Shown piece after piece: positions 2,525-37,385 of a stretch of DNA of 37,905 nucleotides. Under the pieces are notes generated by a model. It ran no database searches. It saw nothing but the letters and a program-made list of their open reading frames with translations, and had not been told where the DNA came from. Position 1 is the stretch's first letter; each line of letters opens with the position of its first letter. The position numbers were made by a program, and so were the translations under genes. This stretch comes from a virus (taxonomy: Duplodnaviria; Caudoviricetes): IMG/VR virus record IMGVR_UViG_3300033076_000390, positions 1-37,905 of that record. One strand, 5' to 3'.

Positions 2525-2554
2525 TGGACCTACTACGTATTTATAGTAGGTCCA
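2525..2554. repeat. Perfect 11-bp inverted repeat (hairpin) overlapping a late promoter; possible terminator or processing site
   Basis: TGGACCTACTA (2525-2535), loop CGTATTTA, TAGTAGGTCCA (2544-2554), in the intergenic gap. Confidence 0.75.
2538..2545 (-). promoter_or_regulatory. T4-type late promoter TATAAATA
   Basis: Exact gp55-type consensus on the minus strand, intergenic, upstream of the ORF starting at 2504. Confidence 0.75.
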
Positions 2555-4603: not shown

Positions 4604-4942
4604 TTACCTCGTTACTCGTGGAGTTACGGTAACCTGTCCTTCAACTACTCGAACTACAGGTGTGCCGGTTGTATGAACAATTTCAACATCATAAACATAA
4701 CGACCTGGCTTCATAGTTCCAGTTTGAGTAGGAGTCAATTGAATCTTGATCTTACCTTGTCCCTGTGAAGTCAATTTAGTACAAGTGAAAGGAAACGACG
4801 TCGAGGACGTGTAAGTTCTACGAACTTGTCCTCGAACAGTGTAATTCGTCAAGTCGATTAAGTTACCAACGTTATCTTCTAACGTAATGGTAGACGAAAA
4901 ATCAGATCCTTGGTCGATTACTAAGTTTGCAACAATAGCCAT
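4604..4942 (-). CDS. BppU-N-like / fibre-attachment structural protein
   Basis: NLVIDQGSDF...DLTNYTVRGQVR...GRYVYDVEI...RVVEGQVTVTP pattern, common in T4-like phage fibre clusters. Confidence 0.6.
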   Translation of the reverse strand: MAIVANLVIDQGSDFSSTITLEDNVGNLIDLTNYTVRGQVRRTYTSSTSFPFTCTKLTSQGQGKIKIQLTPTQTGTMKPGRYVYDVEIVHTTGTPVVRVVEGQVTVTPRVTR

Positions 4943-4976: not shown

Positions 4977-4984
4977 TATTTATA
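4977..4984 (-). promoter_or_regulatory. T4-type late promoter TATAAATA
   Basis: Exact consensus in the intergenic gap between the enzyme island and the downstream fibre genes. Confidence 0.8.
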
Positions 4985-4995
4985 TAGAATTGCAA

Positions 4996-5565
4996 TTAAG
5001 AATCGCGGTATAAGAATAAATCTACGGGCATTGCAAGTCTCATTGTACTGTGGTATGTTGAGACGTAGTGATATAAGAAGCTTGGAAAAACCGCGATTTC
5101 TCCGCTTTCAGGAATAAATGATAGATCATTAAACCAAGGCTCGAAAGTTTCGTCATATCCTCTATTGGAATTTTGTCTTGGATCGGTGAATGATATTCTA
5201 CCACCAGCATCTTCACCTTCACACCATAAGTAAAAGACGGCCGACAATTGAGCGCCTCTATGATTATGGTAGTTGATACTATAATCATGTCCTGAACCAG
5301 TTAACCAACTTCTAGTTCTGTATTTCCAATAGTCTAAAGGTTTTCCAACAGTGTCTTGAAGAAACTTATCAAATGTTGGTAACACAAGTTCATTCTTAAA
5401 TTTAACTACTTCTTCTGCAGGATTATCAAGAACGTTCATGTTATTTAGATCGCTTGGAGGATTACTTAGATCATAATCCATAAGAAGTCTAGTTACAAGC
5501 GAGTCACGAATGTCAACCGGCATAGTTGTTCTCATAACCGGCGTTGGCCACAATTGATGAATCAT
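4996..5565 (-). CDS. 2OG-Fe(II) oxygenase (phage-type, HxH...H)
   Basis: HNH...LSAVFYL...GG.I.F.DPR...GEIAVFPSFLYHYV...R matches the double-stranded beta-helix oxygenase signature. Confidence 0.8.
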   Translation of the reverse strand: MIHQLWPTPVMRTTMPVDIRDSLVTRLLMDYDLSNPPSDLNNMNVLDNPAEEVVKFKNELVLPTFDKFLQDTVGKPLDYWKYRTRSWLTGSGHDYSINYHNHRGAQLSAVFYLWCEGEDAGGRISFTDPRQNSNRGYDETFEPWFNDLSFIPESGEIAVFPSFLYHYVSTYHSTMRLAMPVDLFLYRDS

Positions 5566-6074
5566 GCAACTCTCCTAAGCATCAAATTCAAAGTAATCCT
5601 ATTAGTAAGCCCATGATATTCTTTAACTGAGTGCCAAACATTGCTTGGGAAGATAACTAATTGACCCATCAGGAATGGAACTATAAACGTATTACAGTCT
5701 ACATTCTTAGTGTCTGATACCCATTGTGGGTTACTCCAAGAAGGATCATATAAGACTAAGTCTCCGCCGCAATCTTCATCGCCCATTACTTGTAGAACAG
5801 CGACGAGTTGATTACCATAGTGATTATCACAGTGAATCCCAAAATCATTATGATCTATGGTAGTCGTCTTTCTGATCCATCCATCGACTATTTCATAAGT
5901 TCCTGGATATTCGCCGTGTACTTCTTTTAGTACAGCATTTTTTAGATCTTCAGTACAAACTTCTTCCCAATCTTTACTGTCTATCTCAGCATATTTATTA
6001 TAGACTGCCATGACTAGATCAAAGTCAATCGTTCCATACGCCACTCGAGTAGGCCATAAGTCAATCTTCTTCAA
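5562..6074 (-). CDS. 2OG-Fe(II) oxygenase
   Basis: HCD...GGDLVLYDP...GQLVIFPSNVWHSV...RITL gives the HxD...H triad plus the 2OG-binding Arg. Confidence 0.8.
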   Translation of the reverse strand: MKKIDLWPTRVAYGTIDFDLVMAVYNKYAEIDSKDWEEVCTEDLKNAVLKEVHGEYPGTYEIVDGWIRKTTTIDHNDFGIHCDNHYGNQLVAVLQVMGDEDCGGDLVLYDPSWSNPQWVSDTKNVDCNTFIVPFLMGQLVIFPSNVWHSVKEYHGLTNRITLNLMLRRVA

Positions 6075-6471
6075 TCATGAACTCCTCAACAAAGTATTCT
6101 CTAACATCTGGAACCATGCCTAATGTCTCATCAAAATCCCAGCCTATTTCATTTAAGATCCGTGTATATGTTTTTGCGTCTTTACTATATGTGACGAAGT
6201 ATGGATCATTGCCAAACAAAAGATCTTCGTCGTTAAGATACTCTAATGGTCTTCCACCAAAGTGATCAGCTAACCAGCGGGCATAACAAATTGCAACCAT
6301 ATAAGACTTAGATGGATAAACCCAACCAAGATTCTTATGTTTGAAGTATGCAACTGCGTCTGGTACAACGTTGTTCGTTATAACGATATACTTCGTATTT
6401 AAGTCATCATCATGTTGCGGGTTTAGACGATGGTATATTTCCTGTCTAATCTTCCAATCACTTTTTTTCAT
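6061..6471 (-). CDS. Hypothetical protein of the enzyme island
   Basis: The ORF track gives 6061-6486 with a TTG start. The ATG at 6471 (MKKSDWK), preceded by AGGG, is the more likely start. No motif recognised. Confidence 0.7.
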   Translation of the reverse strand: MKKSDWKIRQEIYHRLNPQHDDDLNTKYIVITNNVVPDAVAYFKHKNLGWVYPSKSYMVAICYARWLADHFGGRPLEYLNDEDLLFGNDPYFVTYSKDAKTYTRILNEIGWDFDETLGMVPDVREYFVEEFMIEED

Positions 6472-6473
6472 TC

Positions 6474-6508
6474 TAGCCCTGTACAACTATGGAATTATAG
6501 TATAAAAT
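6474..6508 (+). promoter_or_regulatory. Putative early (sigma70-type) promoter, antisense to the enzyme island
   Basis: TAGCCC-TGTACA (6480-6485), 17 bp, TAAAAT (6503-6508). The 12-mer TAGCCCTGTACA is identical to that of the promoter at 37871-37905. Confidence 0.55.
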
Positions 6509-6512
6509 AGAT

Positions 6513-7433
6513 CTACCCCCGGAGGGTGGATATAGAGTACCAGTTGATCAAATGATAGAATCCATTACAACCGGTATCTAATGATTGTACTTCTCTTATA
6601 TGCTCAGATAAGCAGTGTCCATTGTAGTTACAGCTTGAACAGTATGAGTTGTTTGAAGTACGTTCTTTCTCAGTATCGCACCATGTAAAGTAACCATCGA
6701 TCGTATCATATTCTTGAAAGAATTCATTGTCATCCTTATCAAATTCTAAAACCCCAAACTTGCCATTAGGAGTAATATAAACGTGATCATCTGAATAACT
6801 ATTACGTGTTTTATTTATGACATCTTCAAGTTGACTAATATTCGATAACTCAAATGTTCTGTTCTCATTCGTTATCCACTTCTTCACAAATTCTTCATAT
6901 TCGTTATAAGTCACATGAAGTTGATTTGCCTGATTGGAACTATATGGTTTGATCTCTACACTTTCAAGATTCTTAAATCTGTTCAATATGTTGACCATTT
7001 CATCAGTGTTTTGTTTTATCAAATCAGGAGAAGCTAACATCAATACACTAAACGGTTTATTTAATAAAGCCATGTTACGAAGAACACGCTCATGATCTTC
7101 TCTAGCATTAAAGTCAAAACTAACCGATGTATAAACACGATCATCTGTTGTGATATCATTGATCATTGAAAGATTGGTTATTAGATTGATGTCTTCAATA
7201 CCATACGTATGTAGTGTATTAATTAGATCATTCCAGTAATCTTTTGGAAGTAGACCAAGTTCGCCACCATACAAATCTACTTTCTCAATAGGTTCATACG
7301 ATAGCACCTCACAGATCATTTCATTTAAACGGTCTAGTGATAGTAATTTATTGTCACTTAACTGTTCAGGCGTAAGATAACAGAACTTACATCTGAAGTT
7401 ACAGTAATACCAAGGGTTGATTGAAAGGATCAT
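6513..7433 (-). CDS. Radical SAM enzyme with reduced SPASM-like C-terminus
   Basis: CNFRCKFC (Cx3Cx2C), YGGE motif, C-terminal CSSCNYNGHCLSEH...C. Confidence 0.9.
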   Translation of the reverse strand: MILSINPWYYCNFRCKFCYLTPEQLSDNKLLSLDRLNEMICEVLSYEPIEKVDLYGGELGLLPKDYWNDLINTLHTYGIEDINLITNLSMINDITTDDRVYTSVSFDFNAREDHERVLRNMALLNKPFSVLMLASPDLIKQNTDEMVNILNRFKNLESVEIKPYSSNQANQLHVTYNEYEEFVKKWITNENRTFELSNISQLEDVINKTRNSYSDDHVYITPNGKFGVLEFDKDDNEFFQEYDTIDGYFTWCDTEKERTSNNSYCSSCNYNGHCLSEHIREVQSLDTGCNGFYHLINWYSISTLRG

Positions 7434-7954
7434 CCACTGATATCCTTATTGATCTTGTAATTGAATAATGCAACTCTACGTGGTACATCCATCTTTAGAG
7501 GATTAACGATATGTTCAAAATTTAAATTATGGTTCATGAAAGAAACATCATAACGCTTTGGATAAAACCCATCGATGTATTCTTTTGTCTTTATATCTCT
7601 AAAGCTTATATCACCACCAATGTCTTCGTCCATGTCATCTAGGTATAAAAGAATCGATAAGTTATAACCCTCGATGTTATCATTGTGCCATGATAGTGTA
7701 GCTTCATCCATTCCATTAACGATTTCACAATCATCACCATATTGGAAATTAGGATCTATATGTTTAACATACTTTTCAGCTAAAAGAATCTGTGTATTTC
7801 TAATGTCATTTTCAACTAAGACATTACGCTTAACCAAACGAAGTCCTTGTTCCTTTAGGTTCTTCCATTCCCACGACTCAAAGTCCTTAAGATATTTAAA
7901 GACTTCTTTATCGTTAACTTTATAAAACCCATTCTTCTTGAATTCTTCTATCAT
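7430..7954 (-). CDS. 2OG-Fe(II) oxygenase (prolyl-hydroxylase-like)
   Basis: WHND...ILLYLD...GGDI.F...FEHIV...RR. Confidence 0.8.
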   Translation of the reverse strand: MIEEFKKNGFYKVNDKEVFKYLKDFESWEWKNLKEQGLRLVKRNVLVENDIRNTQILLAEKYVKHIDPNFQYGDDCEIVNGMDEATLSWHNDNIEGYNLSILLYLDDMDEDIGGDISFRDIKTKEYIDGFYPKRYDVSFMNHNLNFEHIVNPLKMDVPRRVALFNYKINKDISG

Positions 7955-8976
7955 TTGTTCGCCTCAATAATATCATTAGCTAGCGTCTTCATTTTTGCAC
8001 AGTGAATCATATTCATATCATAATCTTTATGATCTTTAATAGTCTTCTTACATCCATTGCAGATTTCAAACATAGGACATGTATAGCAATCATTAGTCAT
8101 AGTCTGTAGTGATTGGACGAACTTAATAGGAAATACCTTGGCTCCGTTCATCTCTTTTTTAAAGTCGATAGGATATAATCTATCATCTCCAAAAGCACCA
8201 CATGAATAGTAATCGCCGGATGGCTGTAGCGTTCTAATTCCAGAGTCGCACTCGCGGTTTTGAGGACAGCATGTCGCACGACCTTTTAGGCGCTTCATCA
8301 TTTGTTTAGTATTAAATTCCCAAGGGGCTAATCCTTGTTTCCAAATATCTACATAGATTTCGTAGATATCGGCAAGAAGAAAAGGCTTACCTTCTTGCCC
8401 CATGATAATGCCTTTGAACTTTACTGGAGGGCCAGATGACATTGCGTAATTCAACTTACACTCAACACCCATCTCTCTCGCAAGTTCTACGTTCTTTACG
8501 GCGTATTGCTTATTTTCATCTGTGATAACTGAGATAAAATCAGGTCTATAACCACAATGCTCAAGCATTGCATCAGAGACTTTCCAAAAGTCTTCTTCAG
8601 TGAATTCGCTTAAATCTCCCTTTAGTCTTCCACCGCCATATTGAAATGAAGTAGTAACACCAACGCGTGGATGATTAAAAAGATCTTTCCATTTATTTGG
8701 ATTTTTGTAGAATGGCCAAAGATTAGACGTTATTGAGATTGACGTTGGTAGATCGATACTGTCTAAATGTTCGATGATCTTCCAGTAATAATCTGGTTGC
8801 ATCATTAATGGATCACCACCATTGACGATAATGGTGTTAGTTTCAGGAAAGCGCTTTAGAAAATCAAAGATGTATTGGTGATCTAGCTCAACTGACTTAT
8901 CATCTGTGATGTGTGTGCTTGAACAGAATGTACACTTAAAGTTACATTTTTCTGTAGGTTTAATTATAAGATCCAT
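7951..8976 (-). CDS. Radical SAM/SPASM enzyme
   Basis: IIKPTEKCNFKCTFC, GGDP motif, CCP...C...YYSC, CYTCPMFEICNGC...C. Confidence 0.92.
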   Translation of the reverse strand: MDLIIKPTEKCNFKCTFCSSTHITDDKSVELDHQYIFDFLKRFPETNTIIVNGGDPLMMQPDYYWKIIEHLDSIDLPTSISITSNLWPFYKNPNKWKDLFNHPRVGVTTSFQYGGGRLKGDLSEFTEEDFWKVSDAMLEHCGYRPDFISVITDENKQYAVKNVELAREMGVECKLNYAMSSGPPVKFKGIIMGQEGKPFLLADIYEIYVDIWKQGLAPWEFNTKQMMKRLKGRATCCPQNRECDSGIRTLQPSGDYYSCGAFGDDRLYPIDFKKEMNGAKVFPIKFVQSLQTMTNDCYTCPMFEICNGCKKTIKDHKDYDMNMIHCAKMKTLANDIIEANK

Positions 8977-10459
8977 TGAATTTTTCTTTATTCACATAGT
9001 ACTTTCGTACCCAATCTTCAATAAGATGTCCATCGTATAATAAGAAGTCTTCTGTCACTCTGTTACCATCAACTAACTTATCAATCTCACTTTTAATATA
9101 TTTAAACCAGTCTTCATGCTGAATTTCTTGATAAACCTGACGAAGATAAACACTCGGCTTTTGGTCTTTAGGTGTAAGAGGACCAAGAACGCATTGAGCA
9201 TAGTTCATAAAGAACATTTCTTTCCACTGCTCTTTAGTGAACGTGTTAGTCTGAATAACGATTTCCTGTGGTGATTTATATTTTCCAATCACGCTATGAC
9301 TTACATATGTGATATCATTATCGTCGTTTTCAGTAACACCAATCTTAGTCGTCTTAATACCATGTAATGCTTTATATAAAGGATCTGCCATCTCAGTAGC
9401 TGGCAAAATAGTTAATGGCCCGCGTGACCAATCCCAAATATTTGTATTCGGCGTTAAGTCCATCTCATCGTAGAACGAATCTATCGTTGATCCAGGAAGA
9501 CCAAGAATAAGTTCTAACTTGCCAGACATTCCATAAAGATCACGGTACTTTTTAGCAAGAGCCATGTTCTCTTCAATTGTAATGTCTTTTCTTTTCACTG
9601 CATCTAATGCGTCTTTACTAATAGATTGAATCGATAACGAGTAGTAATCCATCAATCCATTTGCAAAACCAATGTCAAGAATCTTTTCACGCTTTTCAAC
9701 TTTAACTTTGGCAATTCCATAGATTAAGATTTTCTTTGGTGCGTTGAATATCTTTTTGTTGTCGGCAATACGTTGCATGATCTCAACATCTCTACTTAAT
9801 ATACCAAAATTGGCATCTACAATATCAATGTTGCCAAAACCTAACATACAGACCAAGTCTAATTCTTTAAAAACATTTTCAATAGGTTTCTGAATAACCT
9901 TAGTTCCTACACCGCCACCCCATTCGCAATATGTACATGAATATGGACAACCACGAGTAGTCTCAAAGTTAATCACAGACGTCTTATTTAGTTTTTTAGC
10001 AATCCCTGAAACGTTTGTAAGATATTCAATGTTATGTTCAAATGATGATTGCTCTGGAAAACAGAACTTAGCTTTACCAGCTTTGATTGGATCTATTCCA
10101 TCAAATATGTCTTTAAGGTATAGTTCACCAGGAACTAATGGATCGCAGTTGTAGTCAATTCCGTCAAACATAGTTTGTTGTGGACCACCACGAATAACTT
10201 CAATGCTTGACACTTCTTTAATTCGCTTAGCTACTTCAATGCACAGTTTTTCATTCCAAATGTATGTACTTAAACATAGAACTTTTGGATTGTGCTTAAC
10301 GATCTCATTGACTACATCATCTAGAGTTTCATATAATTCCCAATCGATGATTGGCTCTATCCATTCATGCTCTGGAAGAAATGAACTCATGTTCATCCAT
10401 GCAGTGTCAGCTACTATTGTTCTAGTAGAGATAGGAGGGTTAAGCCAATAGATTCGCAT
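8960..10459 (-). CDS. Cobalamin-binding-type radical SAM enzyme (class B methyltransferase-like)
   Basis: N-terminal LSTYIWN...GGP (B12-binding-like), ETTRGCPYSCTYCEWG, DANFG, ELILGLPG. Confidence 0.85.
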   Translation of the reverse strand: MRIYWLNPPISTRTIVADTAWMNMSSFLPEHEWIEPIIDWELYETLDDVVNEIVKHNPKVLCLSTYIWNEKLCIEVAKRIKEVSSIEVIRGGPQQTMFDGIDYNCDPLVPGELYLKDIFDGIDPIKAGKAKFCFPEQSSFEHNIEYLTNVSGIAKKLNKTSVINFETTRGCPYSCTYCEWGGGVGTKVIQKPIENVFKELDLVCMLGFGNIDIVDANFGILSRDVEIMQRIADNKKIFNAPKKILIYGIAKVKVEKREKILDIGFANGLMDYYSLSIQSISKDALDAVKRKDITIEENMALAKKYRDLYGMSGKLELILGLPGSTIDSFYDEMDLTPNTNIWDWSRGPLTILPATEMADPLYKALHGIKTTKIGVTENDDNDITYVSHSVIGKYKSPQEIVIQTNTFTKEQWKEMFFMNYAQCVLGPLTPKDQKPSVYLRQVYQEIQHEDWFKYIKSEIDKLVDGNRVTEDFLLYDGHLIEDWVRKYYVNKEKFNGSYN

Positions 10460-11027
10460 TTCTTATCCAATAATTTCCATCACGTTTAAAACCAAGAGGT
10501 TGCATTAAAGAAGCTTTATATGAATTACGAGGAACTCTTTTCTGATTGATCGATAGATGCAACCATTCCATGTATGATCCTGCTGGACAAATCATTTTTC
10601 TATCGCCAAACATCTTTATTAAGTCATGCCAAATGTCTTTGACGATATTTGTTGTAACTACACGCCCAAGATTTTTCATATACCCATAATATTTAACAGT
10701 GCCAATAATGACTTCATTTTCATAAGGATATACGATTGATTGTCCAATCTCTATCTTCCAAGGCTCAGGACAACCAATGACTTGTTCTTCGCCTTTACAC
10801 TTCACAGCTTCTTCATCAATAGAAGGATAGACACCTTTTTCGACATGCCAAATAAGAACATGCCCTTGGTTAGGGCATATCCTAGCTACGTATGGGTGTT
10901 TTGTTGGAGTATTTTCTGGATAGCAATCAACGTTGGCTGGATAATACCGCGCGTTTAAAGGGTTTGATCCCGCGTCGTAATCTAACATCGTCGATGTATC
11001 TGTGCGTAAGTTTATAGACACACTCAT
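10440..11027 (-). CDS. Hypothetical protein of the enzyme island
   Basis: 195-aa ORF (alternative start at 10988) overlapping both neighbours; no firm motif. Confidence 0.65.
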   Translation of the reverse strand: MSVSINLRTDTSTMLDYDAGSNPLNARYYPANVDCYPENTPTKHPYVARICPNQGHVLIWHVEKGVYPSIDEEAVKCKGEEQVIGCPEPWKIEIGQSIVYPYENEVIIGTVKYYGYMKNLGRVVTTNIVKDIWHDLIKMFGDRKMICPAGSYMEWLHLSINQKRVPRNSYKASLMQPLGFKRDGNYWIRNANLLA

Positions 11028-12003
11028 CTAGTTCTTCCCTAAATTTATAATCATGGCTCATGAAACAACCTAAACCACATCTGTCCAAATACTCGCATGA
11101 AACGCAATCGTATTTTTCTAAGAAGTTGTTCTCAATACCAGAATTATCATTCGCTTTCAATGGGCTTTTGTAAAAAGTAATAGCCTTTTCATCACTAAGC
11201 ATTAAATTACCGCACTGACACATTGTTCCATCTTGAAGAACTAATTTTGAAGTGCGACAGGTAATGTAGTTATAATCATTCTCTATCCATCCTTTGATAG
11301 GATCTACATTTGGATAGTTGTCTATTAAGTGTTTAAAGAAAGTTAGTAGTAACTCGTCTGATGGCGCTTGATGAGTTGCAGAAACGTCTGGAGAATAGTA
11401 ATCAAAGTAGATATACTTTCCAGCGTTATATAGTTCTTTAAAGTATGGATCTTTGTCTTGCAGTAAGTACTCAATGCTTGGCTTACTTAACAACATACTA
11501 ATGCATTTCACTCTATCACCAAAGTATTTCATAGAGTGCTTGAATTGCATGAAGTCGTTTACATTGAATCTACCACGGGGATCGTACGATGTAACTAACT
11601 CTGCATGTACACCAATACTTTGTGAATAACTAAAGAGTTCGTCGATTAAGTTATACTTAGTAGTGACTAAGTTGCTAACCCAATTGATTCGTACTCGTTT
11701 GTTGTATTTTTCTCCAAGCGCTTTAATGCCAAGAGTAAGATCTTTATATGCTTGTAACAAAGATTCGTCAAAAATCTCTGTGGCAAATACTTCGCCACCC
11801 ATAGCATTAAAGATTACAGAGTCTCTTCTTTCAGTAGATAAGAACTTTTCAATAGGGATTAATTTTGACAACACATCGTCAATCCCTACTCTGTTTTCAT
11901 GGTCTTGCCAACAGAAAGAACATCTTAAATTACAATATTCAAATAAGTGAAGCGTATATTCTTGTTCAATATCACGCTTCTTCTCAATAACGAATTCACG
12001 CAT
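10927..12003 (-). CDS. Radical SAM/SPASM enzyme
   Basis: CNLRCSFC, MGGE, and C-terminal C...CQC...CVSCEYLDRCGLGC...C (Cx2Cx5Cx3C). Confidence 0.92.
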   Translation of the reverse strand: MREFVIEKKRDIEQEYTLHLFEYCNLRCSFCWQDHENRVGIDDVLSKLIPIEKFLSTERRDSVIFNAMGGEVFATEIFDESLLQAYKDLTLGIKALGEKYNKRVRINWVSNLVTTKYNLIDELFSYSQSIGVHAELVTSYDPRGRFNVNDFMQFKHSMKYFGDRVKCISMLLSKPSIEYLLQDKDPYFKELYNAGKYIYFDYYSPDVSATHQAPSDELLLTFFKHLIDNYPNVDPIKGWIENDYNYITCRTSKLVLQDGTMCQCGNLMLSDEKAITFYKSPLKANDNSGIENNFLEKYDCVSCEYLDRCGLGCFMSHDYKFREELDECVYKLTHRYIDDVRLRRGIKPFKRAVLSSQR

Positions 12004-12005
12004 TA

Positions 12006-13100
12006 TTACACCAATTTGTATTTGCTTAAATCAGCACCTTCAAATTTTTGACGTAGGAAGTAGAGGAATAAGACAAAGTTTACGTTTTGGAAGTCAAAAC
12101 GTGGGATCATATTCGTATCAAATGGTTCATTGATAACGAATGTTAATAGTTCTTGCATTTCATCGTCAGTAAGTTCATCTCTAGACGCAGCATTCAGGTA
12201 TGAGCTTAATCCAAAAACAGATCGATCAATCTGCATTCCTTCAAAGCGATCATACACTGAAATAAGTGTATTACGTAAACCATTTATTTGTTCATCTGAA
12301 AGACCAGCAAGATTGCAATTACCGCTTTGCATTTCCCAGATCTGGTTATCTGCATAAGCTTCTAATCCAGGAATTCCAGCTAATGGATCTTCACGTGTAA
12401 TATCTACTAATGAAGGATCAATCCCCATTGCAGTTTGGAATCTGTGGTTATTAATATTCAATAGAACCATTTGGCGATTATCAGTCAGCAATTCTTTAAA
12501 CCAACGGCGAAGGAACATATGCATTGTTGATTTTAATTGCGCTGTATAATTCTTAGATCCAGATAAGTGATCTGCAATCATTAGTTCATATGAAAGATTT
12601 AACCCAAGTGACTTAAACGCTTTCTTTTCTTTAGCTGTAAACTTAGTAGCTTCATCCCAGAATGTTTGTAGATCACCAAGATCTTCCCACAATGTGTTTA
12701 AAGACATGCTATACACAGAAGATAACTGTGTATTAGAAATAATGCGTTGATTGTAGATTGTATGATCTACAATTGTCTTAAATCCTTCAAAATCTAAACT
12801 AGGAAGTATACCCTTAAACCATTGAGTAGTAAACTTCTTATACGCAGTTTTATCGCAATAGATAATGATCTTCTTGCCAGATTGACTAGAGAAGTCACGC
12901 AGTTTTTCTAAGAATGCAATAAAATCATTCTCAATAACTTCATCATATGTTAAACCAAACTTGATAAGTTCACCATAGGCAACTTTATCAAGTTCAATCA
13001 TCATCTTCTTACCATATTGCTCAGAGATGACAACTCTGTCGAAATTGATTTCGATATTATCGTCGAATTCAAGATATACTTTGTTAAACAGATGTAACAT
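12006..13100 (-). CDS. Hypothetical protein of the enzyme island (364 aa)
   Basis: Long ORF tightly packed with its neighbours; no catalytic motif recognised. Confidence 0.75.
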   Translation of the reverse strand: MLHLFNKVYLEFDDNIEINFDRVVISEQYGKKMMIELDKVAYGELIKFGLTYDEVIENDFIAFLEKLRDFSSQSGKKIIIYCDKTAYKKFTTQWFKGILPSLDFEGFKTIVDHTIYNQRIISNTQLSSVYSMSLNTLWEDLGDLQTFWDEATKFTAKEKKAFKSLGLNLSYELMIADHLSGSKNYTAQLKSTMHMFLRRWFKELLTDNRQMVLLNINNHRFQTAMGIDPSLVDITREDPLAGIPGLEAYADNQIWEMQSGNCNLAGLSDEQINGLRNTLISVYDRFEGMQIDRSVFGLSSYLNAASRDELTDDEMQELLTFVINEPFDTNMIPRFDFQNVNFVLFLYFLRQKFEGADLSKYKLV

Positions 13101-13800
13101 TTACTAATTCCTTTAAGGTTTGTTCTTTTGCTTTGTTATAGTCTTCACTCTTGATCAAACCTTCTGAAATACCGTAGGTTAGAAGGAACATTGGATTATT
13201 ATCATTAGCCCAATAACTATACATGTTCTTACCTTTAAACATATAGTCATTGAAGTAGTGAGTGTAGTAACGTAAATCTTCGTTCTTTATGTTTCCATAA
13301 AAATTATAAAACTGCGGATGTTTTAAAACACTAATAAAGTTAACACCAACTAATGTGTCGCTATCATCTTTCTCAAAGTTATCTACAAACTCTTTGAAAG
13401 AAGGATCGTTAACGATAGACATATTATAAATCGTTAAACTATCTAAGCGAGATGACCATGCTGAGATGATGTCTTTGTTTTGCTCAATGAAGACTTCATC
13501 TTTCACAGGTACTAATTCTTTGTATTGCTTTAAAACATAAATTGCTAGATTTTCTAGAATAGGAATATTCACAATGCTTGATGCATTGAAATACTCTTTA
13601 AGCATTTCATAACATTCGCTATCATCACATCCAGTAAAATCAATATCACAAGGAATGTCCAGGTTGCTAAAATACGTTAATAGTTTAGCACCTTTCAATT
13701 TACTTTCTTTATAATTGATGATATAGAACGTGCTTTTATCTGTGAAGTACTTCTTTAAGTCTTCAATAGAGATAGGAGCAGGTGTTTTCACAAAATTCAT
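13084..13800 (-). CDS. Hypothetical protein of the enzyme island (238 aa)
   Basis: Starts 2 nt after the stop of the CHxS protein; no motif recognised. Confidence 0.75.
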   Translation of the reverse strand: MNFVKTPAPISIEDLKKYFTDKSTFYIINYKESKLKGAKLLTYFSNLDIPCDIDFTGCDDSECYEMLKEYFNASSIVNIPILENLAIYVLKQYKELVPVKDEVFIEQNKDIISAWSSRLDSLTIYNMSIVNDPSFKEFVDNFEKDDSDTLVGVNFISVLKHPQFYNFYGNIKNEDLRYYTHYFNDYMFKGKNMYSYWANDNNPMFLLTYGISEGLIKSEDYNKAKEQTLKELVNVTSV

Positions 13801-13802
13801 TA

Positions 13803-14372
13803 TTAACGTCTTCCTCTAGAACTATGACAAGATGAGTGACATGATGCATGACACACGTTGATTTGTACAGTGACAGTATTTCCACGAGCACCATTATAGT
13901 TTGCACGCATACTATCAAACATTGCTTCTAAACCACCAGCAGTAATAGTATTACCTGCCCAAACGTCTGAACGACCAGCGCCAACGCCTTGGAAGTAGTT
14001 ACCATTCATGTATGCTACAGCAGTACCATCGTAGATATATCCAGGATTTGGGCGTGAACCAGTGTTACCGCCGCCACCATCTACGTATAGTAATGCACGA
14101 AGGTTTCGAATGTTCGTGTAATAATATGTCTCTGTGATAAGAACGTTATAAATTTGTTGAGCGTTAATAACTGTTCCAGCACCAGCAATATTACCACCGC
14201 TAATTCCAATGCCTTTGCCCCATGTATACCCACCAAAGTAGTTACCATCAAACTCACCGAATGGGTATGCATTATAGCCCCAAGAAATACCAGAGTTAGC
14301 AGAGGCTACTACGTAGTCAGAAAATCTATCAACGATATTCTGTGGTGTGATTGGATTATTTAGTGACGCCAT
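13803..14372 (-). CDS. Putative substrate/precursor: Gly/Asn/Tyr-rich structural-like protein with C-terminal (CHxS)x3-RGRR tail
   Basis: Ends VCHASCHSSCHSSRGRR. All Cys and His residues of the 189-aa protein are in this tail. Has a GGA ribosome-binding site and is flanked by radical SAM genes. Confidence 0.7.
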   Translation of the reverse strand: MASLNNPITPQNIVDRFSDYVVASANSGISWGYNAYPFGEFDGNYFGGYTWGKGIGISGGNIAGAGTVINAQQIYNVLITETYYYTNIRNLRALLYVDGGGGNTGSRPNPGYIYDGTAVAYMNGNYFQGVGAGRSDVWAGNTITAGGLEAMFDSMRANYNGARGNTVTVQINVCHASCHSSCHSSRGRR

Positions 14373-15402
14373 GTTGTTCCTTAATTATCCACACTTTTTT
14401 AGTGTTTTTACTTAATGCTTTCATTAAACTTTTAGGTGCTCCACAGATATTATCCTGCCATGCAAGTTGATGGCAATCGCCACCGCAATGTTGAAATACC
14501 TCACATGAATAACAGTTAGGATTTCTACTTTTCTCGCAGGCCATATTGTGAAGCCTTATTGGACTATTTATAAGGTCTTCGATAGAGTCTTTTATATGTC
14601 CAAATTGTTGTTCAGGTGCAGAGTTCGGGCAACCTGCAATAGTACCATCCGCATTTAGTGTAAAGATCTTTTCTTCGCAGTCTCTACAGAAAGTACCACC
14701 TGCTGTGAATCCAGTTTCAAACTTAGCGTAGATCGTTTCCAGGAATTCATTTTCAAACCAATCTCTAGCTCCATAAAGTTCGCTCTGTTCATGCATCTTT
14801 AAGAACCATTGATCTTGTTCTACGTTTGAAGGAAATATATCTGGATGCAGATTTGCATTTCCATTACCAGTTAATCTTTCAAACGATACTTCTTTGACAC
14901 CTAGGTTTTTTATCCATGTAAGAAGATAGATTGGTTCTATAGACAGCGTATCTTTAGTAACGCTAATGAACAATCGTATATTAACACCTTCATCAACAAG
15001 TGTCTTCACATTTGTAAGCCAAAGCTTCAACTGCTTATCGTTATCAAATCTAATCTTAGGATCCCATGATGTACCTAAGCGATTGTTTAGAGGACCTTTA
15101 ATAAAATCTATGTGTTCTTGCTTTAACTTAAATACCAGATTGGTAGTTGCTCCCCAACTAATGTTAGGTTTATCGCAGTGATCAAACACATATTGCATTT
15201 CACTTACATCAACTAAAAATGGTTCACCACCATGAAATTCACAGTGAAGTGTATCACTTTCTTTGACTGGAAATTTGTTTATCCATTCTGCAATTGCTTT
15301 ATAGTCCCAATAGATTTTTGCGCCATTGATACCATTTGTAAAGCAATGTCTACAATTTAGATTACACGTCTCCGTAGTCTTTAGGTAAAACATCCAATTC
15401 AT
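14356..15402 (-). CDS. Radical SAM/SPASM maturase
   Basis: YLKTTETCNLNCRHC, FHGGEP, CRDC...IAGCP...CYSCEVFQHCGGDC...C (canonical SPASM Cx2Cx5Cx3C). Confidence 0.93.
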   Translation of the reverse strand: MNWMFYLKTTETCNLNCRHCFTNGINGAKIYWDYKAIAEWINKFPVKESDTLHCEFHGGEPFLVDVSEMQYVFDHCDKPNISWGATTNLVFKLKQEHIDFIKGPLNNRLGTSWDPKIRFDNDKQLKLWLTNVKTLVDEGVNIRLFISVTKDTLSIEPIYLLTWIKNLGVKEVSFERLTGNGNANLHPDIFPSNVEQDQWFLKMHEQSELYGARDWFENEFLETIYAKFETGFTAGGTFCRDCEEKIFTLNADGTIAGCPNSAPEQQFGHIKDSIEDLINSPIRLHNMACEKSRNPNCYSCEVFQHCGGDCHQLAWQDNICGAPKSLMKALSKNTKKVWIIKEQHGVTK

Positions 15403-15898
15403 GATTTAGTTTTTCAGTGAGGTATTTTTCTAAGCCAAAGCTAAGTGTTAGTGCAAAATCATCATTGATTGCTTGATGAGGTGTATTAGCTGGAATGAAT
15501 ACGTCTTGTCCAGCCTCTAGTATTATATACTCACCATCTACGATAAGCGTTTTCTTACCTTCTGCGCAATAGATGATAACATCATCTGGATCAGTGTGCA
15601 TAGGGAATGATGGTGATTTTGGATGTGCAACAAACACGTGGCATGTTATAGGACCACTATGATTATTCTTCAGCGCATAATACTTAGCTCTATTCCAAAT
15701 ATTAGCGCTGTACTTTTCAAACCCTTCTACTTTAATAGTTACATTGTCTTCATATAACTCTGAAAACGAACTAAGGAGGATTTGCTCCCCCTTAGTATTG
15801 ATTTTGTAAACTAATTTTTGTTCGTATGCTAAAGGGTTGTGAATAAATTCTACAACATCATTCAATTGTAACATAAGATTATAGGATAATGCACTCAA
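15362..15898 (-). CDS. JmjC/cupin-type hydroxylase (YcfD/ROX-like)
   Basis: SFPMHTDPDDV...GKK...L.AGQDVFIPANTPHQA...LSFG (HxD...H). The true start may be 15874, just after the stop of the upstream gene. Confidence 0.8.
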   Translation of the reverse strand: MSALSYNLMLQLNDVVEFIHNPLAYEQKLVYKINTKGEQILLSSFSELYEDNVTIKVEGFEKYSANIWNRAKYYALKNNHSGPITCHVFVAHPKSPSFPMHTDPDDVIIYCAEGKKTLIVDGEYIILEAGQDVFIPANTPHQAINDDFALTLSFGLEKYLTEKLNHELDVLPKDYGDV

Positions 15899-16907
15899 CT
15901 AATTTTTCTTCAACAGCAGCATTAGTTTCCAATGCTACACCGATAATGTTTGTATTACCTTGCATGGCTCTTCCATCAGGACCAGCCATGATCGATTCGC
16001 CTTTCTTAATTGCGCCAACAACTCTTACTGGAACACGACCCTTAAGAGCTACAGGTTGACCTTCAGATTCTGAGTTCATCAAATAAGCAGGCTTTTCAGA
16101 AATTACACCAATAGCTACTTGACCAGGCGCCCATGATTGTGTACAATCTGCAGAACCACCTAATGCAACAACAATCACAGTACCAGTTGCGTATGTAAGA
16201 TCAGTTGTATACTTTTCTGCCAAGTCGGCGTATCGTGCGGCAGTTGCTGTACCATACATGATGTTGGCTGAAAGACTGCCATCACCATGACGTAAAACGA
16301 TTGTGTTTGCATCAGCACCAGTTGATGGTTGATAACCATCTAATACGTCAGCATCTAAACCAGATCCAGCGCCATCATTACCAGAATGCCAAGGTGTATA
16401 GCCTAAAGCTGTTGTAACATCTGAACTGCTTAATGAAGTACCACTAGTTGCACGACCTTTGCTATCAACTGTAATCTTTGTATATGTACCAGCACTAACA
16501 CCAGAGTTTGCAAGTGTTAAAGCACCAGTTACGTTACCGGTACCATCAAAGTTTGTAGTCCAAGTAGCATCACCTGTGATACTAATAGAACGTGTAGTTG
16601 CTAACTTAGTTGCAGTATCTGCGTTACCAGTAACGTTAGCAATAAGGTTACCAGTAATAGTTAAGTTACCTGACGCGTCAAGCGTTAGTTCTACTGGATC
16701 TCCAGCATCAACTTGAACTTTAAATTGTGTGTCTGAAACTGTAAGAGTGCCTTGAATAGCACCGCTTCGTAATTCATTAATTGCAGCAACAAGATTCAAG
16801 GCAGTAGTAGCTAATGTAGCACCATCACCAACCAATGTGGAGATATCATTGGTTTTAATTCTCCATTGCTCGAATGTGTTATCTTGGGTAACGTTGATTA
16901 ACGCCAT
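15879..16907 (-). CDS. Tail fibre/spike protein with C-terminal intramolecular-chaperone (peptidase G2-like) domain
   Basis: TFEQWRIKTN N-terminus, GTYTKITVDSKGR and GSGLDADVLDG fibre motifs, YADLAEKY...GVISEKPAYLMN...VALKGRVPVRV. Confidence 0.8.
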   Translation of the reverse strand: MALINVTQDNTFEQWRIKTNDISTLVGDGATLATTALNLVAAINELRSGAIQGTLTVSDTQFKVQVDAGDPVELTLDASGNLTITGNLIANVTGNADTATKLATTRSISITGDATWTTNFDGTGNVTGALTLANSGVSAGTYTKITVDSKGRATSGTSLSSSDVTTALGYTPWHSGNDGAGSGLDADVLDGYQPSTGADANTIVLRHGDGSLSANIMYGTATAARYADLAEKYTTDLTYATGTVIVVALGGSADCTQSWAPGQVAIGVISEKPAYLMNSESEGQPVALKGRVPVRVVGAIKKGESIMAGPDGRAMQGNTNIIGVALETNAAVEEKLVECIIL

Positions 16908-27000: not shown

Positions 27001-27009
27001 TATTTATTA
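27001..27009 (-). promoter_or_regulatory. Late promoter TAATAAATA, 5 nt before the gp25 ATG
   Basis: TAATAAATA-TAGAT-ATG. Confidence 0.6.
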
Positions 27010-28410
27010 AGCTTTCAGGACTTTTAGCGCTGCTTCTGTATACTTAAGGCGATCGTCTAACGCATTTGTACCGCCATTTACTTTAATGCTCAACCCTTTA
27101 TAATCTTGTTTGTCGGCAAAGCCAGATAGATTATTACTTTTCCAGAACCATAACGAAGATTCAATCGCAACAGTTCTATTTTGTGCTACTTGATCTGGAT
27201 CTTTAACTAAACGATCATCACCAAATGTATCTTTTGAGCACGCAAGATAGTTAGCCTTAAATGTTAACTGCTTTAGACCGCGTCCTCTATAACGATAGCC
27301 ATCTCCAGAGGCTTCTGGCCCATTTAGATATCTGCCACCATAAACCTTATTGGCAATCTTTTCAGAATTGCCGGCGTACTGATCAGCGTCTTCTTGTGTT
27401 TTAAAATACTTTTTAAATGTGTTTAGAAGGTTTTTAGATGAATATTTTAAATTTTCTTCAAGCTTTTTTGGATCATTTGCAAATTTAGTCTCAGCCATGA
27501 TCTGCCCAATCCATCCTGCAACGCGTTCAGGTGTAGTTACACCGTATTTTGGAAGGTATTGTACTGCTAAATCATACCATTGACCAGCAGCGGCGTTTGC
27601 TGCAGCAATAAATTTCTCTTTTGTGAACGCAAATGTAAATCCGCCAGCTGGAGGAGGCGAAGGTTGTGCTTCTACGGTTGGATTTTTCTTCGGAGTGACC
27701 GGTGGTGCTGCTTTTTCAGCTGGTTTAGTGATTCCAATAGGATTTCCATTAGTATCATTTACAACAGCGCCGCTAGTGTCAGTCAAAACGATGATTTTAT
27801 CACCATCTGGCGTCACATAATCGCCAGAACTATCTTTTGAAGCTCCGTCAACGATGATTTTGATCTGACCATTGACTAAAATAGGCTTTCCGTCTGCATC
27901 TGTGACGATTCTAACGTTATAACCAGGTAATTTCGACTCAACGTTTGGTACTTCCTTACACATGTCAAGGAGCGCGGCCGCAATATTCTCTTCTGTAAGA
28001 GTATTTAAGATGTCTTGTGTCGTCGTAGTAATGTTTGCAGCTAAATTTTGCAGTTGCTCATACAAACTTGCCGACGACGATGATATTGCCGGCGGTTTTG
28101 GAATCTTATTGATAAGTTCATCTAAGTTTTCAACAGTTTTACCAAAATAATTCTTAAGTTTTTCAACAGAAGCATTATATTCAGCTGGTGAAAGGTATGG
28201 TAACTTAGCCAATTCGGCCTGAAGATTATAATTTTCCATCATCGGAACATTCACTTCGGACAATTTAGCCTTAATTGTAGTTGCAAGACTATCCAAATCA
28301 CTTATAGAATCTAATCCTTCAGCGATTTTTGCTTTTAGCTTATCAATTTCGGCTTTAGCTTCATCTAAAGCCGCATTAACGCCGCATGGTGAAATAGTTA
28401 TATTAGCCAT
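27007..28410 (-). CDS. Multidomain protein with C-terminal glycoside hydrolase family 19 (muramidase) domain
   Basis: ERVAGWIGQIMAET...EENLKYS...IANKVYGGR..NG....GDGYRYRGRGLKQLT...NY...WFW...VNGG.N.L.DR, preceded by a helical N-terminus and a Pro-rich linker. Confidence 0.85.
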   Translation of the reverse strand: MANITISPCGVNAALDEAKAEIDKLKAKIAEGLDSISDLDSLATTIKAKLSEVNVPMMENYNLQAELAKLPYLSPAEYNASVEKLKNYFGKTVENLDELINKIPKPPAISSSSASLYEQLQNLAANITTTTQDILNTLTEENIAAALLDMCKEVPNVESKLPGYNVRIVTDADGKPILVNGQIKIIVDGASKDSSGDYVTPDGDKIIVLTDTSGAVVNDTNGNPIGITKPAEKAAPPVTPKKNPTVEAQPSPPPAGGFTFAFTKEKFIAAANAAAGQWYDLAVQYLPKYGVTTPERVAGWIGQIMAETKFANDPKKLEENLKYSSKNLLNTFKKYFKTQEDADQYAGNSEKIANKVYGGRYLNGPEASGDGYRYRGRGLKQLTFKANYLACSKDTFGDDRLVKDPDQVAQNRTVAIESSLWFWKSNNLSGFADKQDYKGLSIKVNGGTNALDDRLKYTEAALKVLKA

Positions 28411-36802: not shown

Positions 36803-37020
36803 CGAGTAGTCCACGGACTATACTTCTGGTATTCCTTCAAATTGGTCTCCTTAATGGAGACCTTTTTCGTTATAGACAACGATCTTTCAAAGTCGAGCCA
36901 CGACTTAAGGTTATATCCACGGGCAGGGACCTTGTGCTTGAATCCACCTTGATTCTCAATCGTCAGCACGAAGAACGCATCCCTGTTAACTTTATTCTCT
37001 GGGTAGCCGACGACTATCAT
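36799..37020 (-). CDS. Hypothetical protein (probable early gene)
   Basis: 73-aa ORF with an ATGA overlap to the upstream gene; converges on the tape-measure-like gene. Confidence 0.6.
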   Translation of the reverse strand: MIVVGYPENKVNRDAFFVLTIENQGGFKHKVPARGYNLKSWLDFERSLSITKKVSIKETNLKEYQKYSPWTTR

Positions 37021-37220
37021 GCTGCTCCAAAGAATAGTACATCACCTGCTTCCTTAGGATATCTTGCTCCCCAGTCGGCGATTCGCTCTTTATCTAGATC
37101 CTCGGACAGGCCAGGAACCGTACCGATAAAGTATTTGATACCCTCGAACTCGTCCTCACAGCGTACGATACCTACACAACCTGTACCGCCGGTAAACCAC
37201 ATTGCATCTAGAATCTTCAT
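37017..37220 (-). CDS. Hypothetical protein (probable early gene)
   Basis: 67-aa ORF with an AGGTGAG-type ribosome-binding site. Confidence 0.65.
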   Translation of the reverse strand: MKILDAMWFTGGTGCVGIVRCEDEFEGIKYFIGTVPGLSEDLDKERIADWGARYPKEAGDVLFFGAA

Positions 37221-37385
37221 TCTCTCACCTTCTCATTCATCTTTCCAAGTTCAATCATACAGATCCTCCACACCCGCGGGCTTACTACACTTAAGACAGC
37301 CAGGAGGCTGGAGGCCAGTAGTAGACACAGTCTAATATAGATCGCATCCGTCAGATCATTGAATCCCTTTAGAATAGTTACCATA

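What the first reader, a model, noticed from the sequence alone, without database searches (positions are those of the whole stretch)
4996..15898. Phage-encoded RiPP-like modification island (5 radical SAM enzymes, 4 oxygenases, a candidate substrate) inside the tail-fibre operon
Seen: 14 consecutive, mostly overlapping minus-strand genes between two fibre genes. Four have Cx3Cx2C plus SPASM-like Cys clusters, one is a B12-type radical SAM enzyme, three are 2OG-Fe(II) oxygenases, one is a JmjC/cupin protein, four are unknown, and one has a Cys/His repeat tail. No transporter, leader peptidase or immunity gene is recognisable. The island continues directly from late structural genes, and a late promoter resumes right after it (4977). 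Known: radical SAM/SPASM enzymes, B12 radical SAM methyltransferases and 2OG/JmjC hydroxylases are standard peptide and protein tailoring enzymes. Inference: this is a late-expressed pathway that crosslinks, methylates and hydroxylates a virion component (for example for receptor binding, stability or metal binding) rather than making an exported peptide.
Basis: partly seen in the sequence, partly recalled or inferred. Interest (0 to 1): 0.95.

Follow-up and report, generated by a model that had tools for sequence, protein, structure and literature searches.

The report
Phage enzyme kit tailoring virion protein
Among its tail-fibre genes this phage carries five iron-sulfur radical enzymes and four iron oxygenases around one small protein with a near-invariant Cys-His-x-Ser tail, and these enzymes likely rebuild that tail chemically on a protein that probably ends up in the virus particle, a kind of particle finishing I found no description of.

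Summary
Observation confirmed: 14 co-oriented genes with five radical-SAM enzymes, three 2OG oxygenases, a cupin, four unknowns and a 189-aa protein ending (Cys-His-x-Ser)3-RGRR. The core (cupin, four rSAMs, substrate, orphan genes A, B, D) is conserved in dozens of uncultured T4-like phages and in cultured jumbo phages; the B12 enzyme, 2OG oxygenases and gene C are accessory. The substrate gene has its own T4-type late promoter hidden inside the upstream rSAM gene (49 of 56 loci; 0-1 for the other core genes). Its homologue gp170 is in the published Atu_ph07 particle proteome, peaking in the top gel band at 32 kDa; none of the enzymes is listed. B12-enzyme presence covaries with a non-Gly residue in the third repeat (post hoc). 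Close relatives fill the same slot with a different four-rSAM kit or with nothing. Best reading (0.62): a swappable kit that crosslinks and decorates the tail of a particle protein. No chemistry is shown. It is not a member of the HXS defence system. The scan has reported this kit before on other DNA.

The parts
15879..16907 (-). Upstream tail-fibre-like gene (context; left border of the slot)
   Evidence: PHROG tail fibre hits; homologue upstream in 40 of 51 dereplicated loci
15362..15898 (-). Cupin/JmjC-like Fe oxygenase, core gene; invariant H101-x-D103...H141
   Evidence: Pfam Cupin_2, JmjC_2; alignment; profile hits generic cupins best and MINA53 histidyl hydroxylase weakly, E 2e-4; present in 63 of 68 loci
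14356..15402 (-). rSAM1, radical SAM/SPASM enzyme, directly upstream of the substrate gene
   Evidence: adjacent to the substrate gene in 53 of 56 loci
14565..14572 (-). T4-type late promoter motif TATAAATA embedded in rSAM1, about 200 nt before the substrate start
   Evidence: exact motif within 240 nt upstream in 49 of 56 loci, at several positions and frames
13803..14372 (-). CHxS protein (189 aa): folded body plus C-terminal (C-H-x-S)3-RGRR tail; candidate substrate and particle protein
   Evidence: 667 homologues; AF2 pLDDT 86; Atu_ph07 gp170 homologue in particle proteome
13806..13853 (-). The 16-residue tail, C174-R189
   Evidence: CHxxCHxxCH in 261 of 270 listed homologues; 257 of these end exactly six residues later
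13084..13800 (-). Orphan gene A (238 aa), core; candidate helper
   Evidence: phrog_20767; adjacent downstream in 53 of 56 loci; confident model without a clear fold match
12006..13100 (-). Orphan gene B (364 aa), near-core, divergent
   Evidence: 57 of 68 loci; no family
10927..12003 (-). rSAM2, radical SAM/SPASM enzyme, core
   Evidence: 44 of 44 loci with enough downstream DNA; CX3CX2C in 92 of 92
10440..11027 (-). Orphan gene C (195 aa), accessory
   Evidence: 25 of 68 loci; no family
8960..10459 (-). B12-dependent radical SAM enzyme, probable C-methyltransferase, accessory
   Evidence: NF033712 E 1.9e-37; 33 of 68 loci; covaries with residue x of the third repeat
7951..8976 (-). rSAM3, radical SAM/SPASM enzyme, core and highly conserved
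   Evidence: 57-65% identity to cultured jumbo-phage homologues; 42 of 44 loci
7430..7954 (-). 2OG-Fe(II) oxygenase 1, accessory
   Evidence: PF13640 E 5e-5; HxD motif
6513..7433 (-). rSAM4, radical SAM enzyme with a short auxiliary Cys cluster, core
   Evidence: 43 of 44 loci; conserved C265, C268, C274, H278, C289
6061..6486 (-). Orphan gene D (141 aa), core
   Evidence: phrog_20737; 61 of 68 loci; no structural lead
5562..6074 (-). 2OG-Fe(II) oxygenase 2, accessory
   Evidence: PF13759/PF13640, phrog_81
4996..5565 (-). 2OG-Fe(II) oxygenase 3, accessory
   Evidence: PF13759 E 1.6e-10, phrog_81
4977..4984 (-). Late promoter motif for the downstream structural genes
   Evidence: also present before the homologous gene in the 10 relatives printed
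4604..4942 (-). LtfC-like fibre-assembly gene (context; right border of the slot)
   Evidence: phrog_1084, phrog_3304, PF23926 weak

Best explanation
The island is likely a dedicated maturation kit in which four radical-SAM enzymes and a cupin oxygenase chemically rebuild the (Cys-His-x-Ser)3-RGRR tail of the 189-aa protein, which is probably made in excess late in infection and built into the virus particle. Shown: gene content, linkage, tail invariance, a conserved late-promoter motif for the substrate gene, a homologue in a particle preparation, and exchange of the whole kit at one slot among the fibre genes. Inferred steps: (1) one or more SPASM enzymes abstract H from Ser/Asn C-beta and close His-x-Ser rings of the triceptide type (-2 Da each; about 0.4); (2) others act on the Cys residues (thioether links or oxidation), possibly between subunits; (3) the cupin hydroxylates His or Arg; (4) where present, the B12 enzyme methylates the variable residue of the third repeat (Ser184 here); (5) genes A, B and D present the substrate or service the Fe-S enzymes. 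The product would be a rigid, probably metal-binding, cationic end that locks or arms a fibre-associated protein. The 2OG oxygenases are optional and may act on other fibre proteins.
For: Tail invariant while the body diverges to below 30% identity. Core genes linked in 42-44 of 44 and 48-50 of 51 loci. Of 80 rSAM3-anchored loci 59 show a CHxS gene and the other 21 are cut before the place where it lies in their relatives. Same order in four of four cultured phages opened, both T4-like and phiKZ-like. Exact TATAAATA before the CHxS gene in 49 of 56 loci against 0 of 51 (rSAM1), 1 of 49 (cupin), 0 of 54 (A), 0 of 49 (rSAM3), 0 of 46 (rSAM4); background 0.01 per window. Atu_ph07 gp170: 8 peptides, 35% coverage, most abundant in band 1; gp164-169, 171 and 172 are not listed (PMC6102473 Table S5). 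No signal peptide-like segment. Some homologues carry insertions or fusions that look like fibre/baseplate domains (resemblance judged from recall). B12 covariation. Best NCBIfam matches of rSAM1 and rSAM3 are peptide and protein maturases (PapB, DynA, sulfatase maturase; all far below cut-off). His-to-C-beta rings on Hxx motifs are established (PMC11499958), and a +8 Da rSAM-dependent change maps to an HxS motif in HxsA (PMC13128918).
Against: No modified peptide has been observed and no enzyme assayed. Particle evidence is one homologue (15% identity in the structural alignment) in a PEG-purified preparation that also contains RecA-like, SSB and terminase proteins. The loading buffer lists no reductant, so band 1 may reflect disulfides or an SDS-resistant oligomer. 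A late promoter also drives the downstream enzymes and does not prove a structural role. Tail conservation is partly built into the searches. In one clade the CHxS genes lie 8-10 kb away on the other strand (L122, L125, L132, L140). B12 covariation was picked post hoc, is imperfect (6 of 33 B12 loci have Gly; 10 of 35 without B12 have non-Gly) and is only borderline after tree correction (median p 0.03-0.06). Most relatives lack any kit, so it is dispensable at lineage level.
Confidence: 0.62

Rival explanations
1. The tail is an unmodified Cys/His metal-binding or disulfide-forming motif of a particle protein, and the enzymes act on something else: another fibre protein, or a small cofactor that the tail binds.
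For: C and H are the strictly invariant residues and recur with period four; the gel had no listed reductant; His-x-His metal sites are common in phage fibres (recalled); the alternative kit's small protein has HxH motifs.
Against: Ser/Asn two residues after each His and the fixed six-residue end are also conserved. Only the tail is shared with the plasmid substrate, which again sits among related rSAM genes. B12 presence tracks a tail residue.
Confidence: 0.14
2. An HXS-like effector: the matured cationic HxS tail acts at DNA entry, either as superinfection exclusion in the infected cell or as an ejected protein that guides or protects the phage's own DNA.
For: HxsA uses rSAM-matured HxS repeats with basic residues to bind DNA and block entry (PMC13128918); the phage tail ends in RxRR; the plasmid counterpart has a hydrophobic N-terminus like a signal peptide.
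Against: The phage protein has no signal peptide-like segment or PG-binding domain; late promoter and tail-operon position; no HxsA-D family match near cut-off. An ejected-protein role is not excluded.
Confidence: 0.1
3. A true RiPP: the folded body is a large leader, and the modified 16-mer is cut off and released at lysis as a bioactive peptide or metallophore.
For: Leader-plus-core layout with a basic end; many tailoring enzymes; gp170 coverage is only 35% and the table does not show whether the tail was seen.
Against: No protease or transporter in the kit; the body folds confidently, accepts large insertions and is found with particles at high apparent mass.
Confidence: 0.07
4. The enzymes make a modified nucleotide, tRNA base or cofactor (auxiliary metabolism or DNA hypermodification), and the CHxS gene is a bystander.
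For: Weak hits to viperin, MoaA and QueE models; one relative has PP-loop/QueC-like genes in the same slot (L168; label from motif recall).
Against: Those hits cover only the CX3CX2C region; the kit lies among late structural genes; the CHxS gene sits between rSAM1 and gene A in 53 of 56 loci.
Confidence: 0.04

Closest known systems
HXS anti-phage system (HxsA/B/C/D; TIGR03976-03979; PMC13128918)
   Same: A full-length protein with tandem His-x-Ser motifs and basic residues, encoded with more than one radical SAM enzyme and a small helper gene; modification maps to the HxS motif.
   Different: Bacterial defence versus phage late operon. HxsA has a signal peptide and PG-binding domain and is processed N-terminally; here a Cys precedes each His (period four), the motif is the extreme C-terminus, there are four or five rSAM enzymes that are not HxsB/HxsC (27-30 bits against cut-offs of 268-370), plus oxygenases, and no HxsD match.
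Triceptides / three-residue cyclophane synthases HaaB, YhhB, HtkB (PMC11499958)
   Same: His-x-(Ala/Arg/Lys) motifs crosslinked His to C-beta by SPASM enzymes; H-x-S/N/A here fits the pattern.
   Different: Those are short exported peptides with one maturase; here the substrate is a folded 20-kDa protein, YhhB/AmcB/XyeB/FxsB models score far below cut-off, and Cys is invariant.
CXXX-repeat rSAM targets and ranthipeptide/sactipeptide maturases (TIGR04114/TIGR04115, PapB; QhpD recalled)
   Same: Cys every fourth residue; SPASM enzymes that form Cys thioethers; PapB is rSAM1's best NCBIfam hit (E 2e-10). QhpD crosslinks a protein subunit (recalled).
   Different: TIGR04114 did not match any of 19 tail-bearing or family proteins tested; no Asp/Glu acceptor pattern; phage structural context.
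Radical-SAM ('arylsulfatase/SAM') cluster of Pseudomonas megaplasmids pQBR103 and IncP-2 (PMC4989453; bioRxiv 10.64898/2026.03.27.714766)
   Same: Six rSAM genes distantly related to rSAM1 and rSAM3 (about 25% identity) around a small protein ending in four C-H-x-A/S repeats and RGWR, directly behind an appendage (type IV pilus) operon.
   Different: Plasmid-borne; the small protein has a hydrophobic N-terminus and only its tail aligns; no homologue of gene A. The passages I read call the function undetermined and do not mention the small protein.
Ralstonia phage RP31 ORF70-76 cassette (undescribed; annotated in PMC5468394)
   Same: Four rSAM genes plus a small His-motif protein occupying the same slot behind fibre genes, in both phiKZ-like and T4-like phages.
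   Different: Different enzyme families (best E 2e-3 to this kit); substrate candidate has HxH motifs and no Cys.

Membership tests
HXS system | HxsB and HxsC orthologues (TIGR03978, TIGR03977) | tested here: not met
   Best scores 27.4 bits (cut-off 370) and 29.5 bits (cut-off 267.9), N-terminal region only
HXS system | HxsD (TIGR03976) | tested here: not met
   No NCBIfam match at E 0.01 for genes A, B, C or D; single-sequence scan, so a very remote relation is not excluded
HXS system | Effector with signal peptide and peptidoglycan-binding domain | tested here: not met
   No Pfam/NCBIfam domain; N-terminal 40 residues have maximum hydropathy 0.43
HXS system | Tandem His-x-Ser repeats | tested here: met
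   Three H-x-S/N motifs; Ser in 252, 216 and 244 of 261 at the three positions; spacing differs by the added Cys
HXS system | Blocks phage DNA entry; +8 Da modification | not testable with these tools
   Needs experiments
Triceptides | Aromatic-x-x motif in the precursor | tested here: met
   H-x-S/N/A three times
Triceptides | Maturase in a known cyclophane-synthase family | tested here: not met
   YhhB, AmcB, XyeB and FxsB models give 17-23 bits against cut-offs of 370-450
Triceptides | Aromatic-to-C-beta crosslink | not testable with these tools
   Needs MS/MS and NMR
CXXX-repeat rSAM target family / ranthipeptides | TIGR04114 match of the substrate | tested here: not met
   No TIGR04114 hit for 19 proteins at E 0.1; Atlas row 30 (score 0.76, PF27846 in 19% of one cluster) is a lead only
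CXXX-repeat rSAM target family / ranthipeptides | Cys thioether crosslinks | not testable with these tools
   Needs experiments
Classical exported RiPP | Leader peptidase and/or transporter in the cluster | tested here: not met
   None among the 14 genes; genes A-D have no assigned function, and only 38 kb of the genome is held
B12-dependent radical SAM methyltransferases | B12-binding domain plus CX3CX2C domain | tested here: met
   Pfam B12-binding weak (E 1e-3), Radical_SAM E 1e-11, NF033712 E 1.9e-37; methyl transfer itself untested
JmjC ribosomal-oxygenase-type protein hydroxylases | JmjC fold with HxD...H and 2OG-binding residues | tested here: inconclusive
   HxD...H invariant; MINA53 hit E 2e-4, but generic cupins score higher
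Known virion structural folds | Fold match of the CHxS protein to a solved structure | tested here: inconclusive
   Foldseek PDB best E 0.88; VIA best Z 4.0, rmsd 5.2, 146 aligned

The most novel reading that the evidence does not exclude
Large phages keep an exchangeable 'tailoring slot' among their fibre genes, filled by alternative multi-radical-SAM kits, each with its own small His-motif particle protein. This kit crosslinks the CHxS tails covalently, including between subunits, into an SDS-resistant polymer or collar on the virion. The same chemistry finishes a pilus-associated protein on Pseudomonas megaplasmids, making it a general way of hardening or arming microbial appendages.
Probability: 0.27. 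Interest if true: 0.93.

Novelty: categorically new. Interest (0 to 1): 0.8.

Why it matters
My ten paper searches found no radical-SAM modification of a phage particle protein, so the novelty rating rests on the biological role; at the level of chemistry the kit probably resembles HxS and triceptide maturation. If true, virions carry RiPP-style crosslinks that standard proteomics would miss, and a dedicated set of eight or more genes tunes particle chemistry. It would supply four uncharacterised SPASM enzymes with a predicted 16-residue substrate, four orphan proteins with no known family, and a testable function for the radical-SAM cluster long noted on Pseudomonas megaplasmids. It is directly testable because cultured phages on laboratory hosts (Atu_ph07, Phosso) carry the core kit.

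Tried and rejected
tblastn of the CHxS protein against the phage collection found nothing; homologues were found through rSAM1 neighbourhoods instead. No clear PDB fold for the CHxS model or gene A. No PDB sequence relatives below E 0.01 for A, B, C or D. Atlas gave no usable hit for D. Complex prediction of CHxS with A returned no verdict. A recalled resemblance between D and the HxsD motif found no support. The window-wide TATAAATA count is at chance; only position and conservation carry weight. Sigma-70 promoter and terminator scans were at chance; no Rfam match; PADLOC hits to the rSAMs were weak viperin matches, plus one PDC-M51A hit for the B12 enzyme. No RNA holder listed; two runs guessed as RNA gave only scattered short contigs. 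The RP31 particle table (32 proteins) lists none of ORF68-76, but that kit is a different one and only excised bands were analysed. The RSL2/RSF1 proteomics paper was not held. The motif-string paper search returned only unrelated text in the 20 rows listed. Loci for gp8 relatives were too short to reach the slot. A CxxCH haem-c reading was rejected: the spacing is CxxxCH and the phage protein has no export signal. The A1 search of four partial relatives and RP31 found no CHxS gene, but had no positive control.


Full report
Setting. The window is a 37.9-kb fragment of a T4-like myovirus tail region (gp5, gp6, gp8, gp25, tube, a 1769-aa phrog_358 protein, fibres). DNA runs from freshwater and soil studies hold the stretch, and two runs laid on it cover 30 of 30 bins.

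Observation. The 14 ORFs are present as described. Ten of 13 internal junctions overlap. Four ORFs match PHROG 1802 and keep CX3CX2C in every one of 92-98 unique full-length homologues; rSAM1-3 keep seven or eight conserved auxiliary Cys or nearly so, rSAM4 only four plus a His. The 499-aa ORF is a B12-type enzyme closest to KedN5-family methyltransferases, below cut-off. Three 2OG domains and one cupin are supported. Genes A-D have no Pfam or NCBIfam family. No curated rSAM family reaches its cut-off.

The substrate candidate. The 189-aa protein has 667 homologues at E 0.001 and 538 representatives at 50% clustering. Of the 270 proteins those calls listed, 261 carry CHxxCHxxCH near the end and 257 of these stop exactly six residues later; the residue two after each His is Ser or Asn almost always, and the middle residue varies (the searches favour the motif). 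The body folds confidently (pLDDT 86) while the last six residues are low-confidence. It has no clear PDB match but matches predicted structures from DT01 (by length, the 178-aa top hit) and Atu_ph07 gp170 (TM 0.57, E 8e-7). There is no signal peptide-like segment.

Linkage. rSAM1 and rSAM3 each hit the same 15 cultured-phage records. I opened four (Atu_ph07, Phosso, RSL2, DT01), and all have cupin, rSAM1, CHxS, A, rSAM2, rSAM3, rSAM4 and D. Of 80 CHxS-anchored IMG/VR loci, 76 had the full motif and collapsed to 56 at 90%. Among the 51 with enough upstream DNA, rSAM1 was in 50, the cupin in 48 and the fibre homologue in 40; among the 44 with enough downstream DNA, rSAM2 44, rSAM4 43, rSAM3 42, A 42, B 41, D 40, 2OG 39, B12 22, C 15. 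From the enzyme side, 59 of 80 rSAM3-anchored loci (best 80 of 95) show a CHxS gene. Of the other 21, 13 are cut upstream and 8 belong to a rearranged clade whose longer loci carry the gene 6-10 kb away. A pattern scan of 185,579 prokaryotic genomes confirmed one of 22 candidates, in a MAG that also has a T4-type gp6; this scan is insensitive to distant forms, and earlier scan notes mentioning predatory bacteria were not tested.

A promoter for the substrate gene. TATAAATA at 14565-14572 lies inside rSAM1. The exact motif is within 240 nt upstream of the CHxS gene in 49 of 56 loci, against 0 of 51 for rSAM1, 1 of 49 cupin, 0 of 54 A, 0 of 48 B, 1 of 52 rSAM2, 0 of 49 rSAM3, 0 of 46 rSAM4 and 0 of 41 D; background is 0.01 per 250 nt. 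It occurs at about -25, -45, -67, -97, -163 to -222, in different frames and outside the gene, so it is a DNA signal and not a by-product of the protein. Six of the seven exceptions have a one-mismatch copy. None of the four cultured phages has the exact motif there; Atu_ph07 has a one-mismatch copy. That this is the T4 late consensus is recalled. Extra late transcription of this gene fits a protein needed in bulk.

Particle evidence. In PMC6102473 (passages and supplement parts 2-3 read) Table S5 lists gp170, 31.89 kDa, which matches the mass I computed, with 8 peptides, 35% coverage, bands 1-9, most abundant in band 1; gp164-169, 171 and 172 are absent. Band 1 is taken as the top because 76-139-kDa proteins peak there; I did not see the figure. 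By my hand count 2 of 39 proteins of 25-40 kDa with two or more peptides peak in band 1. The preparation was PEG-purified and the buffer lists no reductant, so disulfides or a stable oligomer explain the shift equally well.

A hint that an enzyme reads the tail. In 68 dereplicated loci the middle residue of the third repeat is Gly in 6 of 33 with the B12 enzyme and in 25 of 35 without (Fisher p 1e-5, best of many positions tried). On FastTree trees of rSAM1, rSAM4 and both, 9-11 independent pairs went the same way 5.4-6.2 times and the opposite way 0-0.3 times (median p 0.03, 0.06, 0.03). This is suggestive only.

An exchangeable slot. Among 58 relatives of the 4604 gene with about 6 kb upstream, 50 have no rSAM there, one has this kit, six have another four-rSAM kit homologous to RP31 ORF72-76, and one has a third gene set. 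In two of those six I fetched the upstream DNA: the same fibre gene (E 1e-107, 1e-96) is followed by a 128-aa HxH protein homologous to RP31 ORF70. RP31 shows the same swap against RSL2 and DT01. The kit is therefore optional cargo tied to the fibre region in two unrelated phage groups.

Plasmids. Following an earlier scan note, I found distant homologues of rSAM3 and rSAM1 on 136 plasmid records each. In the two opened, six rSAM genes follow a type IV pilus operon and surround a 124-128-aa protein ending in four C-H-x-A/S repeats and RGWR. Passages of PMC4989453 and bioRxiv 10.64898/2026.03.27.714766 note this cluster as of undetermined function.

Mechanism. Shown: content, linkage, promoter motif, tail invariance, a particle-associated homologue, exchangeability. 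Inferred: rSAM1-4 act on the tail, most plausibly His-to-Ser C-beta rings as in HaaB, YhhB and HtkB (PMC11499958, part 1 of 3 read) plus Cys chemistry; the cupin hydroxylates His or Arg (weak MINA53 match); the B12 enzyme methylates Ser184; A, B and D are helpers. The purpose is unknown; a rigid metal-binding or inter-subunit lock on a fibre-associated protein is my preferred guess. Overall confidence 0.62.

Comparison. HXS (PMC13128918, parts 1-4 of 9 read) is the closest system in logic but fails membership on enzymes, HxsD and export features. PMC9062424 (passages) notes that HxS motifs recur with unrelated rSAM enzymes. Phage papers only list these genes as annotations (PMC8066314, PMC11898562, PMC5468394, passages); the jumbo-phage review PMC7824862 has no 'radical SAM' passage; PMC12801897 concerns another gene. 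Searches found no description of this kit. The library lacks most subscription papers, including the RSL2/RSF1 proteome, and bioRxiv supplements were not seen.

Verdict. A real, widespread and apparently undescribed system. Earlier notes of this scan reached the same reading on other genomes; they are not independent evidence. The embedded promoter, the B12 covariation and the alternative kit in the same slot were tested here. Interest 0.8, pending mass spectrometry.

Noticed in passing
L169-L171, L173, L174, L178 (1-5960); L255 7479-7865 and L256 6755-7141 (oriented); L167 7173-14743: A second, unrelated four-rSAM kit (homologues of RP31 ORF72-76, E 1e-37 to 1e-128) with a 125-128-aa protein bearing two HxH motifs fills the same slot behind the same fibre gene in close relatives, and replaces the CHxS kit in RP31 relative to RSL2 and DT01.
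   Followed up: partly
L168 59-4119: The relative with the closest 4604 gene (88%) has two PP-loop/QueC-like genes, one rSAM and an oxygenase-like gene in the slot: a third kind of filling (labels from motifs, recalled).
   Followed up: no
L165 15676-16050; L166 15465-15851: Small plasmid proteins with a hydrophobic N-terminus ending in four C-H-x-A/S repeats and RGWR, amid six rSAM genes directly after a type IV pilus operon; 136 plasmid records hit by rSAM3.
   Followed up: partly
L082, L158, L122, L125, L132, L140: A clade with two tandem short (about 135-aa) CHxS genes, extra rSAM genes and a rearranged core without detectable A or B.
   Followed up: partly
L063-L065, L071 (9070-10438 in L063): The CHxS gene is split: its N-terminal part is fused to a glycine-rich domain and the tail is on the next gene; the late promoter stays in front of the first part.
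   Followed up: no
BFVD A0A8S5USJ7, A0A8S5USJ8, A0A8S5USV2: Three 500-660-aa proteins of one Myoviridae genome match the CHxS model (TM about 0.5), suggesting the body also occurs inside larger paralogues.
   Followed up: no
window 2525-2554, minus strand: The late-promoter motif at 2538-2545 lies in the centre of a 12-pair inverted repeat.
   Followed up: no
window 6515-6527, minus strand: Small G+C hairpin with a T-rich tail at the rSAM4/D junction, a possible terminator inside the kit; not above chance in the scan.
   Followed up: no
window 27007-28410, minus strand: Glycoside hydrolase 19 lysozyme encoded as a separate gene right after the gp5-like spike.
   Followed up: no
window 35270-37335, plus strand: Two GC-richer ORFs (510 and 187 aa) after the gp26-like gene with almost no family match.
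   Followed up: no
L164 (NZGN01000038.1): The only hit in the bacterial genome scan; that genome also has a T4-type gp6 gene, so it is probably a phage contig binned into a MAG.
   Followed up: partly
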